A DNA stretch of 4,246 nt from positions 1 to 4,246 of the IMG/VR virus record IMGVR_UViG_2693429733_000009; one strand, given 5' to 3'. Below are positions 474 to 4,077 of this stretch, piece by piece (the stretch's first letter is position 1; the number at the start of each line of letters is the position of its first letter). The notes under the pieces were generated by a model. The model was not told the origin of the DNA, searched no databases, and saw nothing but the letters and a program-made list of their open reading frames with translations. This stretch comes from a virus. Lineage: Duplodnaviria; Heunggongvirae; Uroviricota; Caudoviricetes. Position numbers and translations under genes: made by a program.

Positions 474-1199
474 TCACTTTTCCGACACAATACGACCGGA
501 GGAATCGACAATCTGTCGAACAATATCCCGGTGCTTGTTCAGCTCCCGCAACGCGGCGCAGACACGCTCCCACTTCTGGACATGACTTTTCGCCCGACGC
601 AGTTCGCGGTTTGCCATATGCAGCGATGGTAAAACCAGGTCATCCGCTTGCGTTTCGGTGAACGATGGCAACGACTGCACAATGTCCGCCACAGTTTCTG
701 TTTTAATTTCTTCCTGTGTTGCAGCTTCCTGTACCGGTAACGCAACACCTGCTGGCTGAGGAAAGACTTTACCATCCGTTTCCGCTATGGATGCGGCTTT
801 CGGCTCTGCCGGTAAATCAGCGCCCGGTATGCAGTACCGAAATTTACCGCCCTGATTCACGCGAATCAGACGCCCTTTGCTGATTGCCATGGCCAGCGAT
901 GAATTCGCCCGGCGGGAGGTAATCCCGAACATCAGTGCCAGCTCATCCGCCGTTTGTGGGCCATGTTGTTCAATCGCCTCAGTCAGCATTTGCGCTGTCA
1001 CTTTCGGTACCGGTGACACTGGTTCACTTTCACCAGCCTGAATCAGCCACCACATCGAACCCTTGTTATCCGCTTCACCACGGCGCTTCAGTTTCCACAG
1101 TTCGTTGACCGCATCTTCACGGCTGATTCCAAGGCGGGACGCCACCACATGTGAAGAGGCTCTTTTCAGTGCTTTCAGTGCGTCAAATACAGTTTCCAT
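474..1199 (-). CDS. Prophage protein of unknown function, 241 aa, with two winged-helix-like segments and an acidic low-complexity linker
   Basis: ORF 474..1217 (TTG at 1217); preferred start ATG 1199..1197, preceded by GGAGG at 1212..1208 with an 8-nt spacer. It begins 22 nt after the DnaC-like stop. Candidate HTH stretches: [21 protein letters not shown] and [26 protein letters not shown]. No family assigned with certainty. Confidence 0.65.
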
Positions 1200-1220
1200 T
1201 AAAACATCCTCCAACAAAAA

Positions 1221-1967
1221 TTACTTCACAACTCCCGGAAAGCTGACATTTGAACGCCAGCTATCCCAGTTAAACGTCACCCACCGACAACCGTTCATGG
1301 TCATGCGGTCCATAATCCTCTCACCAAGAAGCGTGCTCATTGCGGCATGATTCAGGTTTGTTAACATCCCGACACTGCACAGTGATGCTGTCCGGCGATC
1401 AATTATCTGGTGCAATACCACCTGCTCGTTTTTCGTCTCCCGCTGAATGCCTATTTCATCCAGGACCAGCAAATCAACCCCGCAAAGCTCCTGTAAAAAT
1501 TTTTCACCGGATTTGCCGTTGTCGTAGCTGTCATGCAACACGCTCATGACATCAGACACGGTGACGATAATCACGCTGCGCCCCTTCGCCATCAGCCAGT
1601 TACCCATCGCCGCTGCAAGGTGATTTTTCCCGGTGCCGGTTTTACCGCTGAACACAAAATTCGTGCACCCGGTCATCAGTTCGTCAGCTATGGATTTGGC
1701 CTGGCTCAGCGCGTATTTTTGCCCGTCGTTCTGCACCTGATAATTCGCAAACGAGCATTTGCTGTGCAGAGGCTGGATGCCCGAACGATTCAGGATTTTT
1801 TCCACCCGCAACTGGCGATTCTGGCGGTTAATCTCCTCGCTGCGTTTTCGTCCTTCAGCAAGTTGCCATTCCCGCCACTCCTCCACCGTCCGGTACGGTG
1901 GAACCGCCCCCTGTGGTGCAAGTCTGTGAATACGTTCAAGAACCCCGGCTGCCGCAATGTTTTTCAT
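1221..1967 (-). CDS. DnaC-like replicative helicase loader (AAA+ ATPase), in the lambda P-equivalent position
   Basis: 248-aa ORF, ATG 1967..1965, stop TAA 1223..1221. Walker A FSGKTGTGKNHLAAA and Walker B DLLVLDEIG. Clear end-to-end similarity to E. coli DnaC as recalled (NRSGI.PLH..CSF.NY, MLTN, LGERIMDRM, FNWDSWRS). Start lies 6 nt after the stop of the truncated initiator copy at 1974, with a GGGGGTGA Shine-Dalgarno overlapping that copy's end. Confidence 0.93.
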   Translation of the reverse strand: MKNIAAAGVLERIHRLAPQGAVPPYRTVEEWREWQLAEGRKRSEEINRQNRQLRVEKILNRSGIQPLHSKCSFANYQVQNDGQKYALSQAKSIADELMTGCTNFVFSGKTGTGKNHLAAAMGNWLMAKGRSVIIVTVSDVMSVLHDSYDNGKSGEKFLQELCGVDLLVLDEIGIQRETKNEQVVLHQIIDRRTASLCSVGMLTNLNHAAMSTLLGERIMDRMTMNGCRWVTFNWDSWRSNVSFPGVVK

Positions 1968-1973
1968 GCCACA

Positions 1974-2255
1974 TCACCCCCTGAATCCCGGCGGAATTTC
2001 GGTATCCGGTTCAGAAATATGATTCACACAACGCTGGTTGTTCGTGCCGCTTACCGGGAGCAACCAGGGGTTTTCAAAATTCCGGTCCGGCCCAAAAAAC
2101 GTCGTCGCTCGCTGAACAAATTCCGTTCCCGTTTTCCCGGTAGCCGCCAGGTATCTCGCGTAACGCCTCACACCATCCAGCATGGTCTCTGGTGGCACCC
2201 CCTCGCGCAATCTGGCCTTCCAGGCACTGAATGCGGATTTCTTCGGGTTTGCCCC
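1974..2255 (-). pseudogene. Truncated copy of the replication-initiator C-terminal domain (copy A, 282 bp, cut off by the N run)
   Basis: Collinear with 3030..3311 without indels. ORF 1974..2210 encodes ...MLDGVRRYARYLAATGKTGTEFVQRATTFFGPDRNFENPWLLPVSGTNNQRCVNHISEPDTEIPPGFRG, stop TGA 1976..1974. Upstream end abuts the 11-N run. Confidence 0.6.
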
Positions 2256-2266
2256 NNNNNNNNNNN
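2256..2266. other. Run of 11 N (assembly gap or masked bases)
   Basis: Literal n characters in the sequence, joining an initiator 3' fragment to a fragment of the 5' end of a paralog of the 36..458 gene. Confidence 0.99.
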
Positions 2267-2407
2267 GGCAAGAACGCTCATCAGATATCTTGTTGCCCCA
2301 GTTTTAGCTTCCAGTTGTCGTAACGTCTCGCGCCCACTCTGGCGTACGAGTTCAACAACCTGTCCTTTAATTTTTTCCCGCTCTTCTTGTGTAAAAACTT
2401 TTGCCAC
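2267..2407 (-). pseudogene. 5' fragment (first ~46 codons) of a paralog of the 36..458 gene, cut off by the N run
   Basis: GTG start 2407..2405, preceded by GGAGGG. Encodes MAKVFTQEEREKIKGQVVELVRQSGRETLRQLEAKTGATRYLMSVLA. Collinear with 318..458. Confidence 0.55.
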
Positions 2408-2447
2408 AAGCCCTCCTGAAAATTACCTCATGACCAGAAATTAACAC

Positions 2448-2829
2448 TTACCCCCTGAAGCCCGGCGGAATTTCGTTATCCGGTTCAGAAATATGATTCA
2501 CACAACGCTGGTTGTTCGTGCCGCTTACCGGGAGCAACCAGGGGTTCTCAAAATTCCGGTCCGGTCCAAAAAACGTCGTCGCTCGCTGAACAAATTCCGT
2601 TCCCGCTTTCCCGGTCGCCGCCAGGTATCTCGCGTAACGCCTCACACCATCCAGCATGGTCTCTGGTGGCACCCCCTCGCGCAATCTGGCCTTCCAGGCA
2701 CTGAATGCGGATTTCTTCGGGTTTGCCCCGGCACGCAACGGGTATTCCCGCCAGACCTGTTCGAACACATCCGGATAATCCACTCGTCCCACAGGCTGCC
2801 CGGTGTTTTCCGGGGCTACCCGATCGGCT
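2448..2829 (-). pseudogene. Truncated copy of the replication-initiator C-terminal domain (copy B, 382 bp, cut off by the N run)
   Basis: Collinear with 3030..3411 with 11 substitutions and no indels. Encodes ...VDYPDVFEQVWREYPLRAGANPKKSAFSAWKARLREGVPPETMLDGVRRYARYLAATGKAGTEF...PPGFRG, stop TAA 2450..2448. Confidence 0.6.
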
Positions 2830-2850
2830 NNNNNNNNNNNNNNNNNNNNN
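2830..2850. other. Run of 21 N (assembly gap or masked bases)
   Basis: Literal n characters, joining an initiator 3' fragment to a fragment of the 5' end of a paralog of the 36..458 gene. Confidence 0.99.
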
Positions 2851-2989
2851 CAAGAACGCTCATCAGATATCTTGTTGCCCCAGTTTTAGCTTCCAGTTGT
2901 CGTAACGTCTCGCGCCCACTCTGGCGTACGAGTTCAACAACCTGTCCTTTAATTTTTTCCCGCTCTTCTTGTGTAAAAACTTTTGCCAC
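2851..2989 (-). pseudogene. 5' fragment of a paralog of the 36..458 gene, cut off by the N run
   Basis: GTG start 2989..2987, preceded by GGAGGG. Identical to the 2269..2407 copy. The 40-bp intergenic stretch 2990..3029 matches 2408..2447. Confidence 0.55.
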
Positions 2990-3029
2990 AAGCCCTCCTG
3001 AAAATTACCTCATGACCAGAAATTAACAC

Positions 3030-3698
3030 TTACCCCCTGAAGCCCGGCGGAATTTCGTTATCCGGTTCAGAAATATGATTCACACAACGCTGGTTGTTCG
3101 TGCCGCTTACCGGGAGCAACCAGGGGTTTTCAAAATTCCGGTCCGGCCCAAAAAACGTCGTCGCTCGCTGAACAAATTCCGTTCCCGTTTTCCCGGTAGC
3201 CGCCAGGTATCTTGCGTAACGCCTCACACCATCCAGCATGGCCTCTGGTGGCACCCCCTCGCGTAATCTGGCCTTCCAGGCACTGAAAGCGGATTTCTTC
3301 GGGTTTGCCCCAGCACGCAACGGGTATTCCCGCCAGACCTGTTCGAACACATCCGGATAATCTACTCGTCCCACAGGCTGCCCGGTGTTTTCCGGGACTA
3401 CCCGATCGGCTTCCCGCTGAATGGCGGAATCGGCTTCAGGCTGCTGCAGTTGGTGTGATTGCTCCGGCCTTGCGGTCATCACCTGCTGCACAGCGCCCGA
3501 ATCGGCTTTCAGCGCATACGCTGAATCGGCTTCCGGTGTCGTGCCTGCTGGCTGACCAAGATTGACGGTCTGAACATCCCCTGCCTGGTTCGTGGCGTTT
3601 TTTACGCCATGGACCATAGTGTTTTGATCTTCTTNTATCTGTCGTGACTCGTCGTGACATGTGCGTGACATTTCGTGACGCGCCGTGACAATCGCCAT
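3030..3698 (-). CDS. Replication initiator (O-like), C-terminal portion; probably the 3' two-thirds of one gene whose N-terminal domain is in another frame
   Basis: ORF 3030..3698. C-terminal ~115 aa are conserved under purifying selection across three copies. Upstream part is a low-complexity, acidic, linker-like region (EADSA/KADSG/EADSA repeats). Contains one N at 3635. The start is uncertain (ATG 3698 or ATG 3617), or the gene continues from the N-terminal frame. Confidence 0.6.
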   Translation of the reverse strand: MAIVTARHEMSRTCHDESRQIXEDQNTMVHGVKNATNQAGDVQTVNLGQPAGTTPEADSAYALKADSGAVQQVMTARPEQSHQLQQPEADSAIQREADRVVPENTGQPVGRVDYPDVFEQVWREYPLRAGANPKKSAFSAWKARLREGVPPEAMLDGVRRYARYLAATGKTGTEFVQRATTFFGPDRNFENPWLLPVSGTNNQRCVNHISEPDNEIPPGFRG

Positions 3699-4077
3699 TT
3701 TGTTCCCGCTTTCTTTCCCTCTCTCGCTGCGCCCTCTTGCGCTCTGCAGGAGATTTTGCGGTTTGCGAAATATTGCCGTTGTCCTCTTTAAGCACCTGGC
3801 GTTTTTCCCATCCAGTGATTAAATCACCATCAAGTACCCGCCCCTGCATCGTCTGCAAAATTGAATCAATTACCTCTTCTGTCACGTCGAGCGCACTTGC
3901 CAAATCTTCTGTCGTGACATCAATGTGACCTCGCGTGACATTTCGTGACGCGCTCACCAGGAGGTGGATATACACTGCCATCACTGTTGCAATTGGCTGC
4001 CCTGACACCCTGGCAATTGTTCGCCACTTAGGGTCATTTGGCATGTCATGCCATAATCTGAGCCAAGCGTTAGCCAT
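3436..4077 (-). CDS. Replication initiator, N-terminal replisome-organizer-like DNA-binding domain; only roughly 3690..4077 is credibly coding in this frame, and the Arg-rich tail to 3436 is probably out of frame
   Basis: ORF 3436..4083 (GTG at 4083); preferred start ATG 4077..4075 with GAGGTG 3 nt upstream. N-terminus AWLRLWHDMPNDPKWRTIARVSGQPIATVMAVYIHLL fits the W.(K/R)L...DPK pattern of phage replisome-organizer N-terminal domains (from memory). Lies directly upstream of the DnaC-like loader module. Confidence 0.6.
   Translation of the reverse strand: MANAWLRLWHDMPNDPKWRTIARVSGQPIATVMAVYIHLLVSASRNVTRGHIDVTTEDLASALDVTEEVIDSILQTMQGRVLDGDLITGWEKRQVLKEDNGNISQTAKSPAERKRAQRERERKREQNGDCHGASRNVTHMSRRVTTDXRRSKHYGPWRKKRHEPGRGCSDRQSWSASRHDTGSRFSVCAESRFGRCAAGDDRKAGAITPTAAA
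3641..3690. repeat. Iteron-like array 1: five direct CGTGAC repeats at about 10.5-bp spacing, a candidate replication origin inside the initiator gene
   Basis: CGTGAC at 3643, 3653, 3664, 3674 and 3684 (spacings 10, 11, 10, 10). Flanked at 3611..3640 by a stretch of about 65% A+T. Sits at the boundary between the N- and C-terminal domains of the initiator. Confidence 0.6.
3911..3953. repeat. Iteron-like array 2: four direct (C/T)GTGAC repeats at 10-11 bp spacing, plus one inverted copy (GTCACG) at 3881..3886
   Basis: CGTGAC at 3913, 3934 and 3944, TGTGAC at 3924. The 21-mer gcgtgacatttcgtgacgcgc at 3933..3953 is identical to 3663..3683 in array 1. Confidence 0.55.

What the first reader, a model, noticed from the sequence alone, without database searches (positions are those of the whole stretch)
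3641..3690. Five phased CGTGAC direct repeats plus an A+T-rich flank at the initiator's interdomain boundary: a candidate origin
CGTGAC occurs five times at 3643, 3653, 3664, 3674 and 3684, one helical turn apart, so all copies face the same side of the DNA. An adjacent ~30-bp stretch (3611..3640) is about 65% A+T. The array sits exactly where the initiator switches from its N-terminal DNA-binding domain to the linker and C-terminal domain. Phage lambda has the same architecture: its origin (iterons plus an A+T-rich region) lies inside the O gene at the interdomain linker. The iteron sequence and count here differ from lambda's four 19-bp repeats, so this would be a distinct initiator/origin specificity.
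Basis: partly seen in the sequence, partly recalled or inferred. Interest (0 to 1): 0.6.

Follow-up and report, generated by a model that had tools for sequence, protein, structure and literature searches.

The report
Prophage replication origin inside initiator gene

Summary
CGTGAC occurs at 3643, 3653, 3664, 3674 and 3684, far beyond chance. A second phased array lies at 3913-3949, with an inverted copy at 3881-3886. All sit in a minus-strand initiator gene (4077->3030).

In this window the gene is broken by a 23-bp collapse at N3635. The collapse truncates the A+T-rich tract.

The hexamer falls in all three reading frames, so it is a DNA repeat, not a peptide repeat. In 21 homologues with about 57-99% amino-acid identity, synonymous positions inside the hexamers are frozen while spacer codons drift.

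In about 80 species the same two-array layout recurs. The hexamer changes with lineage: GTCACG, GTAACG, GTGACG, GCAACG, CGAACG. Array I is always followed by a purine-rich AGATAA-type tract, even in hosts with 60-69% G+C, and often by a short inverted repeat.

The N-terminal domain models as a winged helix. It is not a lambda O homologue.

Best reading: initiator-binding iterons plus an unwinding element, working like ori-lambda or SPP1 oriL. No binding or replication experiment supports this. I rate it a new member of a known kind, of moderate interest.

The parts
3643..3689 (-). Array I: five GTCACG (CGTGAC on +) iterons at 3643, 3653, 3664, 3674 and 3684. They encode initiator residues 130-146 in three different reading frames.
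   Evidence: The equivalent array (3-6 copies) is present in nearly all homologues.
3611..3642 (-). A+T-rich tract, purine-rich on the coding strand: the putative DNA unwinding element. It is truncated here by a 23-bp collapse at N3635. The intact form is ACAGATAAAGATACAGATAAAGATACAGATCAAGAAGATC on the coding strand.
3586..3616 (.). Inverted repeat with 13-nt arms and a 5-nt loop, immediately beyond the A+T-rich tract.
   Evidence: (I5). Stems of >=7 bp occur at the equivalent place in 31 of 58 homologues against 18% of control windows.
3913..3949 (-). Array II: four phased copies at 3913, 3924 (degenerate TGTGAC), 3934 and 3944. It lies inside the coding sequence of the winged-helix domain (residues 43-55, a loop before the helix-turn-helix).
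3881..3886 (+). Single inverted copy of the hexamer. The GTGAC core is conserved in the clade: Val65 is GTG in 19 of 19 sequences.
3030..4077 (-). Initiator ('phage replisome organizer') gene. Its frame is broken at 3635. Intact homologues are 1071 bp / 356 aa.
1221..1967 (-). DnaC/IstB-type AAA+ helicase loader gene downstream, the presumed partner of the initiator.

Best explanation
The region is the replication origin of a lambdoid (Qin/Rac-like) prophage, embedded in the gene of its own initiator.

Inferred mechanism:
- The N-terminal winged-helix domain binds the GTCACG hexamers. These are spaced about one helical turn apart, so they lie on one face of the DNA. Binding builds an oligomeric nucleoprotein complex on array I, and probably on array II 270 bp upstream.
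- This stresses the adjacent, least stable, purine/pyrimidine-asymmetric AGATAA-repeat tract, which melts. Transcription through the gene probably helps.
- The C-terminal DnaD-like domain and its DnaT-like tail then bring in DnaB. The carrier is a DnaC-type loader, either phage-encoded as in this window or the host's.

Shown: the repeats, their phasing, DNA-level selection on them, conservation of the layout, covariation of the hexamer with the N-domain lineage, and local duplex instability.

Inferred: who binds, unwinding, and helicase loading.
For: - **Chance excluded.** 9 hexamers against 2.28 expected. 5 phased neighbour pairs against at most 1 in 1000 shuffles.
- **DNA repeat, not peptide repeat.** The hexamer occupies frames 2,0,1,0 in array II and 1,2,0,2,0 in array I.
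- **Synonymous-site test on 21 sequences.** Codon-pair identity is 0.85 inside array II against 0.38 outside (p=3e-5). V47 GTC, T48 ACG, G50 GGT, H51 CAC, V54 GTC and T55 ACG are each 21/21. The spacer codon R49 scores 0.29.
- **Family-wide layout.** 61 of 74 initiator 5' regions have >=2 phased hexamer pairs, against 5 of 406 control windows.
- **Lineage-specific hexamers.** GTCACG, GTAACG, GTGACG, GCAACG, CGAACG and ACTACG occur at the same gene positions.
- **Arrays agree within a genome.** Both arrays share the motif in 40 of 65 loci, against a permutation mean of 13 and maximum of 23.
- **Low G+C after array I.** The 40 nt after array I average 36% G+C against 56% for the loci. In most loci this is the G+C minimum of the gene.
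- **Least stable stretch.** It is the least stable 40 bp of the intact gene.
- **Codon bias in G+C-rich hosts.** Tract Asp codons are GAT 89% against 38% elsewhere (p=2e-13). Lys AAA is 65% against 32%.
- **Motif enrichment.** AGAT is 9-fold enriched in the tract.
- **Gene context.** A helicase loader, helicase or primase-helicase gene follows in E. coli, Aeromonas, Pseudomonas and Ralstonia phages.
- **Experimentally established precedents.** Lambda (PMC7466680) and SPP1 oriL (PMC6316719, PMC5737612).
Against: - There are no binding, unwinding or replication data for any member that I could find.
- Foldseek gave no significant PDB match. In DnaD, the closest replication-protein fold, the winged helix is an oligomerisation domain rather than the sequence reader (own knowledge).
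- The residues that covary best with iteron type are those encoded by array II itself, so the covariation cannot identify a reading head.
- Some lineages lack array II, and one distant cyanophage homologue has no arrays at all.
- The tract also encodes a charged linker, so part of its conservation could act at the protein level.
- The copy in this window is frameshifted.
Confidence: 0.8

Rival explanations
1. The arrays are initiator-binding sites used for control (autoregulation, copy-number handcuffing, incompatibility) or as a centromere-like site. Strand opening would then occur elsewhere in the prophage.
For: There are two separated arrays plus an inverted copy. This recalls control iterons of plasmids such as P1 and the ori/crr pair of P4 (own knowledge). 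Array II has no A+T-rich flank of its own.
Against: Array I is invariably joined to the least stable, A+T-biased tract of the gene, and the codon bias there is at the DNA level. No other hexamer cluster lies within +-2.5 kb in any of 80 loci. No partition genes are annotated in the neighbourhoods.
Confidence: 0.09
2. The phased repeats are binding sites for another regulator, for example the CII/YdaT-like protein encoded just upstream. This would resemble lambda CII's TTGC-N6-TTGC sites at antisense promoters inside genes.
For: A CII/YdaT-like gene lies upstream in the E. coli, Aeromonas and Pseudomonas phages. GTGACA resembles a -35 hexamer, and one antisense promoter-like match lies at 3665-3692.
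Against: The promoter match is at chance level: 1 found against 0.7 expected. The upstream proteins of the three GTCACG phages are only about 29% identical although the hexamer is identical. Homologues are detectable in only about 10 of 80 loci, and those include loci with other hexamers. Arrays of 3-6 copies exceed a CII-type dyad of two.
Confidence: 0.05
3. The repeats are a by-product of coding constraints or replication slippage in a low-complexity linker, with no function at the DNA level.
For: Array I and the tract encode a low-confidence linker. Copy number changes by 21-bp (7-codon) steps.
Against: The hexamer lies in three reading frames. Synonymous sites are frozen while spacers drift. 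The same hexamer is kept in two arrays and changes in concert between lineages.
Confidence: 0.02

Closest known systems
Phage lambda ori-lambda inside gene O (also the Stx phages 933W and P27)
   Same: The origin lies in the middle of the initiator gene. Initiator-binding repeats are followed, in the direction of transcription, by an A+T-rich tract (PMC7466680) and, from memory, by a palindrome. Extra iterons add in-frame residues to the protein. The origin-specific N-terminal part is joined to a recruiting C-terminal part.
   Different: There is no sequence homology to O: no Phage_rep_O hit. Here the repeats are 6-7-bp cores every 10-11 bp without dyad symmetry, instead of 19-bp inverted-repeat iterons. 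There are two arrays instead of one. The partner is a DnaC/IstB-type AAA+ loader, not lambda P.
Bacillus phage SPP1 oriL inside gene 38 (replisome organizer G38P)
   Same: Direct repeats plus an adjacent A+T-rich unwinding element are embedded in the organizer's own gene. A loader or helicase gene lies downstream. A second binding region exists (PMC6316719, PMC5737612). NCBI names the present protein 'phage replisome organizer'.
   Different: The Pfam Phage_rep_org_N match is below threshold (12.8 against 23.3 bits). The second site here is 270 bp away inside the same gene, not about 13 kb away. The hosts are Gram-negative and the repeat sequences differ.
Satellite phage P4 ori/crr and staphylococcal SaPI origins (own knowledge, not checked here)
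   Same: Short (6-8 bp) iterons occur in multiple clusters and are bound by the element's own initiator.
   Different: Those initiators are primase-helicase or helicase proteins, and their origins lie outside or downstream of the gene. There is no homology.

Membership tests
Lambda-type origin / O initiator (Pfam Phage_rep_O) | The initiator is homologous to lambda O. | tested here: not met
   A Pfam scan at E<=10 gives only HTH_Crp_2 (0.065), PhyR_sigma2 (0.11) and Phage_rep_org_N (0.12). There is no Phage_rep_O hit.
Lambda-type origin / O initiator (Pfam Phage_rep_O) | Repeats and an A+T-rich tract lie inside the initiator's coding sequence, with the tract downstream of the repeats. | tested here: met
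Lambda-type origin / O initiator (Pfam Phage_rep_O) | Iterons of about 19 bp with internal dyad symmetry. | tested here: not met
   Only a 6-7-bp core is conserved. The 3-5-bp spacers vary freely.
Lambda-type origin / O initiator (Pfam Phage_rep_O) | A lambda P-type helicase loader as partner. | tested here: not met
   The downstream gene is IstB/DnaC-type: PF01695 at 2e-19, and NCBIfam PRK12377 at 500 bits.
Phage replisome organizer with internal origin (SPP1 G38P type, Pfam PF09681) | The N-terminal domain belongs to Phage_rep_org_N. | tested here: inconclusive
   Pfam gives 12.8 bits against a cut-off of 23.3. PHROG 'replisome organizer' families match at 4e-6 and 2e-4. NCBI names the protein 'phage replisome organizer'.
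Phage replisome organizer with internal origin (SPP1 G38P type, Pfam PF09681) | Direct repeats plus an adjacent A+T-rich unwinding element inside the organizer gene. | tested here: met
Phage replisome organizer with internal origin (SPP1 G38P type, Pfam PF09681) | The organizer binds the repeats specifically and the fragment drives replication. | not testable with these tools
   This needs EMSA or footprinting and a replication assay.
Phage replisome organizer with internal origin (SPP1 G38P type, Pfam PF09681) | A helicase loader or helicase gene lies immediately downstream. | tested here: met
   A DnaC-like gene follows here and in pAEv1818. A primase/helicase gene follows in Marin and a DnaB-like gene in Firinga. 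Tritos, 640R1 and Evi lack one.
Iteron plasmid origins (Rep_3 / RepA-pi class) | 17-22-bp iterons, a Rep_3-type initiator and adjacent DnaA boxes. | tested here: not met
   There is no Rep_3 hit and no DnaA box within 1 mismatch in the window. The repeat core is 6-7 bp.
DnaT (primosomal protein I), as some records annotate it | Full-length similarity to DnaT. | tested here: not met
   Only the last 22-24 residues match. NCBIfam gives 18.2 bits against a cut-off of 201. The PDB hits 6aep, 2ru8 and 9zbt match the tail only.

The most novel reading that the evidence does not exclude
The first ~150 codons form a portable cassette that carries both an origin and the domain that reads it. This cassette has three unusual properties.

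- Its iteron (core NNNACG) has diversified into at least six specificities across Proteobacteria, and both arrays have changed in concert.
- One array lies inside, and dictates the sequence of, a loop of the binding domain itself (residues 43-55).
- Copy number changes in 21-bp steps, which equal two iterons and seven codons.

The tract next to array I is not merely A+T-rich. It is a conserved AGAT-periodic, strand-asymmetric element (AGAT 9-fold enriched; GAT favoured but GAA not). It may be read sequence-specifically as single-stranded DNA by the initiator, the loader or host DnaA.

If so, the family would supply natural orthogonal initiator/origin pairs and a new kind of unwinding element.
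Probability: 0.3. Interest if true: 0.7.

Novelty: new member of a known kind. Interest (0 to 1): 0.5.

Why it matters
This initiator gene is found in 2226 of 5426 complete E. coli genomes. It is annotated only as 'hypothetical', 'phage replisome organizer' or 'DnaT-like', and no origin feature lies under the matches listed.

Locating its origin would do three things:
- explain how a very common class of enterobacterial prophages starts replication after induction;
- give a testable minimal replicon;
- provide a comparative series of matched initiator and iteron variants for studying how origin specificity evolves when the binding site is locked inside the coding sequence of its own reader.

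The principle itself (origin inside the initiator gene, iterons plus an A+T-rich tract) is textbook. A specialist would therefore find it satisfying rather than surprising.

Tried and rejected
- **Literature by sequence or keyword** (GTCACG/CGTGAC + iteron; the tract sequence; 'replisome organi*' + iteron; non-lambdoid Stx replication regions). Nothing turned up on this family. Weigel & Seitz 2006 is not held, so I cannot exclude that this origin was predicted there.
- **Sequence search of the PDB with the N-domain profile.** No meaningful hit.
- **Mutual information between residues and iteron class**, to find the reading head. It is dominated by residues encoded by array II itself, so it is uninformative.
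- **DnaA boxes.** None.
- **Rfam.** None.
- **Promoter and terminator scans.** At chance level.
- **DnaA-trio reading of the tract.** Considered and dropped. The GAT/AAA triplets are in the wrong polarity for 3'-GAT-5' trios (own reasoning).
- **IMG/VR scan.** It returned only near-identical E. coli copies. These were useful for invariance but not for diversity.
- **Plasmid search.** The hits are large plasmids with prophage inserts, mislabelled chromosomes, and two 50.9-kb circular P. aeruginosa 'plasmids' that are phage genomes carrying this module. That is circumstantial support only.

Full report
**Context.** The window is a draft scaffold. It has N runs at 2256-2266 and 2830-2850, a single N at 3635, and internally duplicated segments. 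It covers the replication module of a lambdoid, Qin/Rac-like E. coli prophage. All genes are on the minus strand:
- an initiator (4077->3030);
- a DnaC/IstB-type AAA+ loader (1967->1221);
- a DUF1627 gene and a DUF977 gene.

Near-identical DNA (95-97%) occurs in phages Tritos, Evi, 640R1 and others. There the initiator is an intact 1071-bp / 356-aa gene, annotated variously as 'replication protein, N-terminal phage replisome organiser', 'DNA replication protein O' or 'primosomal protein I'. PHROG places it in phrog_3729, 'replication initiation protein'. Its N-terminal module (residues 1 to about 150-160) and its C-terminal module (from about 200) also occur separately in other families.

**The observation.** CGTGAC is at 3643, 3653, 3664, 3674 and 3684, with spacings of 10, 11, 10 and 10 bp. 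The window holds nine copies against 2.3 expected, and no shuffle reached nine. Phased neighbour pairs number five, against at most one in 1000 shuffles. The flank 3611-3640 is 65.5% A+T.

Three things were missed or need correcting.
- A second array lies at 3913, 3924 (TGTGAC), 3934 and 3944, with an inverted copy at 3881-3886. It is 270 bp from the first array and inside the part of the gene that encodes the folded N-terminal domain.
- The window lacks 23 bp at the N of 3635, relative to three aligned phage homologues. 75 of 80 IMG/VR copies carry the full 40-nt tract. The missing DNA belongs to a 12-bp tandem repeat. The real tract on the coding strand is ACAGATAAAGATACAGATAAAGATACAGATCAAGAAGATC, and the window's gene is frameshifted. 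An assembly collapse is the likely cause.
- A 13-bp-arm inverted repeat follows the tract at 3586-3616.

**DNA-level element or coding by-product?** On the coding strand the hexamer GTCACG falls in frames 2,0,1,0 in array II and 1,2,0,2,0 in array I. It is translated as SR, VT, GH or CH, so it is not a peptide repeat.

I aligned 21 homologues from different species without gaps (about 57-99% amino-acid identity). Pairs sharing an amino acid share the codon 85% of the time inside array II, against 38% elsewhere (Mann-Whitney p=3e-5). Val47 GTC, Thr48 ACG, Gly50 GGT, His51 CAC, Val54 GTC and Thr55 ACG are each 21/21. The Arg49 codon, which sits between two hexamers, varies freely at 0.29.

**Comparative anatomy.** A tblastn search of phages and a pattern scan of one genome per species gave about 85 loci. 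They come from gamma-, beta- and alpha-proteobacteria and a few other phyla, at 36-99% identity.

Nearly all carry two arrays of a hexamer phased at 10-11 bp, at gene positions of about 129-167 and 350-450. 61 of 74 have at least two phased pairs, against 5 of 406 control windows from the same loci.

The hexamer depends on lineage:
- GTCACG in the closest clade (E. coli, Aeromonas, Pseudomonas, Bordetella, Serratia and others);
- GTAACG, and GTGACG in Paraburkholderia and Caballeronia;
- GCAACG in Cupriavidus, Burkholderia and Ralstonia phage Firinga;
- CGAACG(C) in many beta- and alpha-proteobacteria;
- ACTACG.

The common core is NNNACG. Within a genome the two arrays use the same motif: 40 of 65, against a permutation mean of 13 and maximum of 23. 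Many apparent misses are register artefacts.

Some lineages lack array II. Array I plus the tract is the constant core. Copy number differs by 21-bp steps, which equal two iterons and seven codons. Examples are the E. albertii array II and the window's five copies against three in pAEv1818.

The partner gene and the C-terminal domain change between phages: a DnaC-like loader, a primase-helicase or a DnaB-like helicase. The arrays stay with the N-terminal module.

**The flank.** In every lineage array I is followed at once by a tract that is purine-rich on the coding strand, of the type (A/C)(C/T)AGATAAAGATAAAGA, with GATACA and GAGAAG variants.
- The 40 nt after the array average 36% G+C, against 56% for the loci.
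- In most loci this is the G+C minimum of the gene, even in hosts with 60-69% G+C.
- In the intact Tritos gene it is the least stable 40 bp: -43.4 kcal/mol against a locus mean of -53.3 (sd 4.4).
- In 26 G+C-rich loci the tract uses GAT for Asp 89% of the time, against 38% in the rest of the gene (p=2e-13), and AAA for Lys 65% against 32% (p=3e-6). GAA/GAG is unchanged.
- AGAT occurs 147 times against 16 expected from composition, spaced 5-6 nt apart.

The tract is therefore under DNA-level selection and is more specific than simple A+T richness. A short G+C-rich inverted repeat follows it more often than in controls: stems of >=7 bp in 31 of 58 loci against 18% (p=4e-8).

**The protein.** An AlphaFold model of the window's N-terminal 147 residues gives a compact domain (residues about 4-95, pLDDT 88-94). 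It has three helices, a loop at 46-55, a helix-turn-helix at 56-77 and a beta wing. A disordered stretch and a low-confidence basic helix follow.

**Mechanism.** The best-supported reading is an origin of the lambda / SPP1-oriL kind. The initiator binds phased iterons, melts the adjacent tract and recruits DnaB through a DnaC-type loader.

The experimentally established precedents are lambda and SPP1. In lambda the origin lies in the middle of O, with iterons plus an A+T-rich tract (PMC7466680). In SPP1 the AB boxes plus the unwinding element lie inside gene 38, and a 356-bp fragment suffices in vitro (PMC6316719, PMC5737612).

Binding, melting and loading are inferred here, not shown.

**Rivals.**
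- **Control or handcuffing sites only.** The constant link of array I to the unstable tract, and the absence of any other cluster nearby, argue against this.
- **Sites for the upstream CII/YdaT-like regulator.** That protein is only about 29% identical among phages with the identical hexamer. It is detectable in about 10 of 80 loci, including loci with other hexamers.
- **Coding or slippage by-product.** Contradicted.
- **Known RNAs, DnaA boxes, promoters.** None above chance.

**Novelty.** The principle is well known. The family is recognised by name ('phage replisome organizer'). I found no description of its origin in the searchable literature and could not read the main review. The listed RefSeq matches show only CDS features, although the gene is present in 41% of complete E. 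coli genomes.

I file it as a new member of a known kind. It is not a lambda O/ori family member, since homology, iteron type and loader type all fail. It is plausibly a distant Gram-negative relative of the replisome-organizer class.

Noticed in passing
window 1976-3411; N runs 2256-2266 and 2830-2850: The scaffold repeats itself. The initiator 3' end occurs three times (3032-3311, 2450-2729, 1976-2255; about 98% identical). The DUF977 5' end also occurs three times (318-462, 2267-2411, 2853-2993; about 92%). The copies are joined by N runs. This looks like several related prophages collapsed or scaffolded together: one with initiator->DnaC-like gene and one with initiator->DUF977 gene.
   Followed up: partly
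window 3635 (N) and L001:4592-4636: A 23-bp loss within a 12-bp tandem repeat frameshifts the initiator gene in this window. 75 of 80 IMG/VR copies carry the full 40-nt tract.
   Followed up: yes
window 3030-3101 (minus strand); L001:4001-4072: The last 22-24 residues of the initiator (…NHISEPD(T/N)EIPPGFRG) match the C-terminal tail of the host replication-restart protein DnaT (PDB 6aep, 2ru8, 9zbt; NCBIfam DnaT positions 156-179). This may be a short motif for docking to the host helicase or primosome machinery.
   Followed up: partly
L009:2501-2953 (E. albertii) and alignment A2: Iteron arrays grow and shrink by 21 bp, which equals two iterons and seven codons, so the reading frame is kept. 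E. albertii array II has six copies. The window's array I has five copies against three in Aeromonas phage pAEv1818.
   Followed up: partly
L001, L002, L003 (phages Tritos, 640R1, Evi), genes next to the initiator: These phages have no DnaC-like gene after the initiator; a DUF977/'LygF' gene follows directly. The window, pAEv1818 and other loci do have one. The same initiator and origin may therefore work with either a phage-encoded or the host DnaC.
   Followed up: no
L071 (MAG Pseudomonadota) gene nt 122-144 vs 338-379: Array II reads CGAAC while array I reads GTGACGC. This is a possible recombinant between two iteron specificities, or an intermediate in a specificity switch.
   Followed up: no
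A+T-rich tracts of gamma-proteobacterial loci (e.g. L004, L019, L027, L031, L032, L049); window GATC at 3626-3629: GATC (Dam) sites recur in or just after the tract, often as AGATCTAAAA, and twice in the intact E. coli tract. This hints at Dam/SeqA control as at oriC. AGATCT is also, from memory, the 6-mer ATP-DnaA box of the oriC 13-mers.
   Followed up: no
L170 (CP137943.1) and CP124671.1: Two circular 50.9-kb P. aeruginosa 'plasmids' are phage genomes carrying this initiator module (GTCACG type) and a primase/helicase gene. PLSDB gives no replicon type for CP137943.1 (CP124671.1 was not inspected). This is circumstantial evidence of episomal replication.
   Followed up: partly
window 1183-1230: The least stable 40-bp stretch of the window is the short gap between the DnaC-like and DUF1627 genes, not the collapsed origin tract. 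This is probably just an A-rich ribosome-binding region.
   Followed up: no
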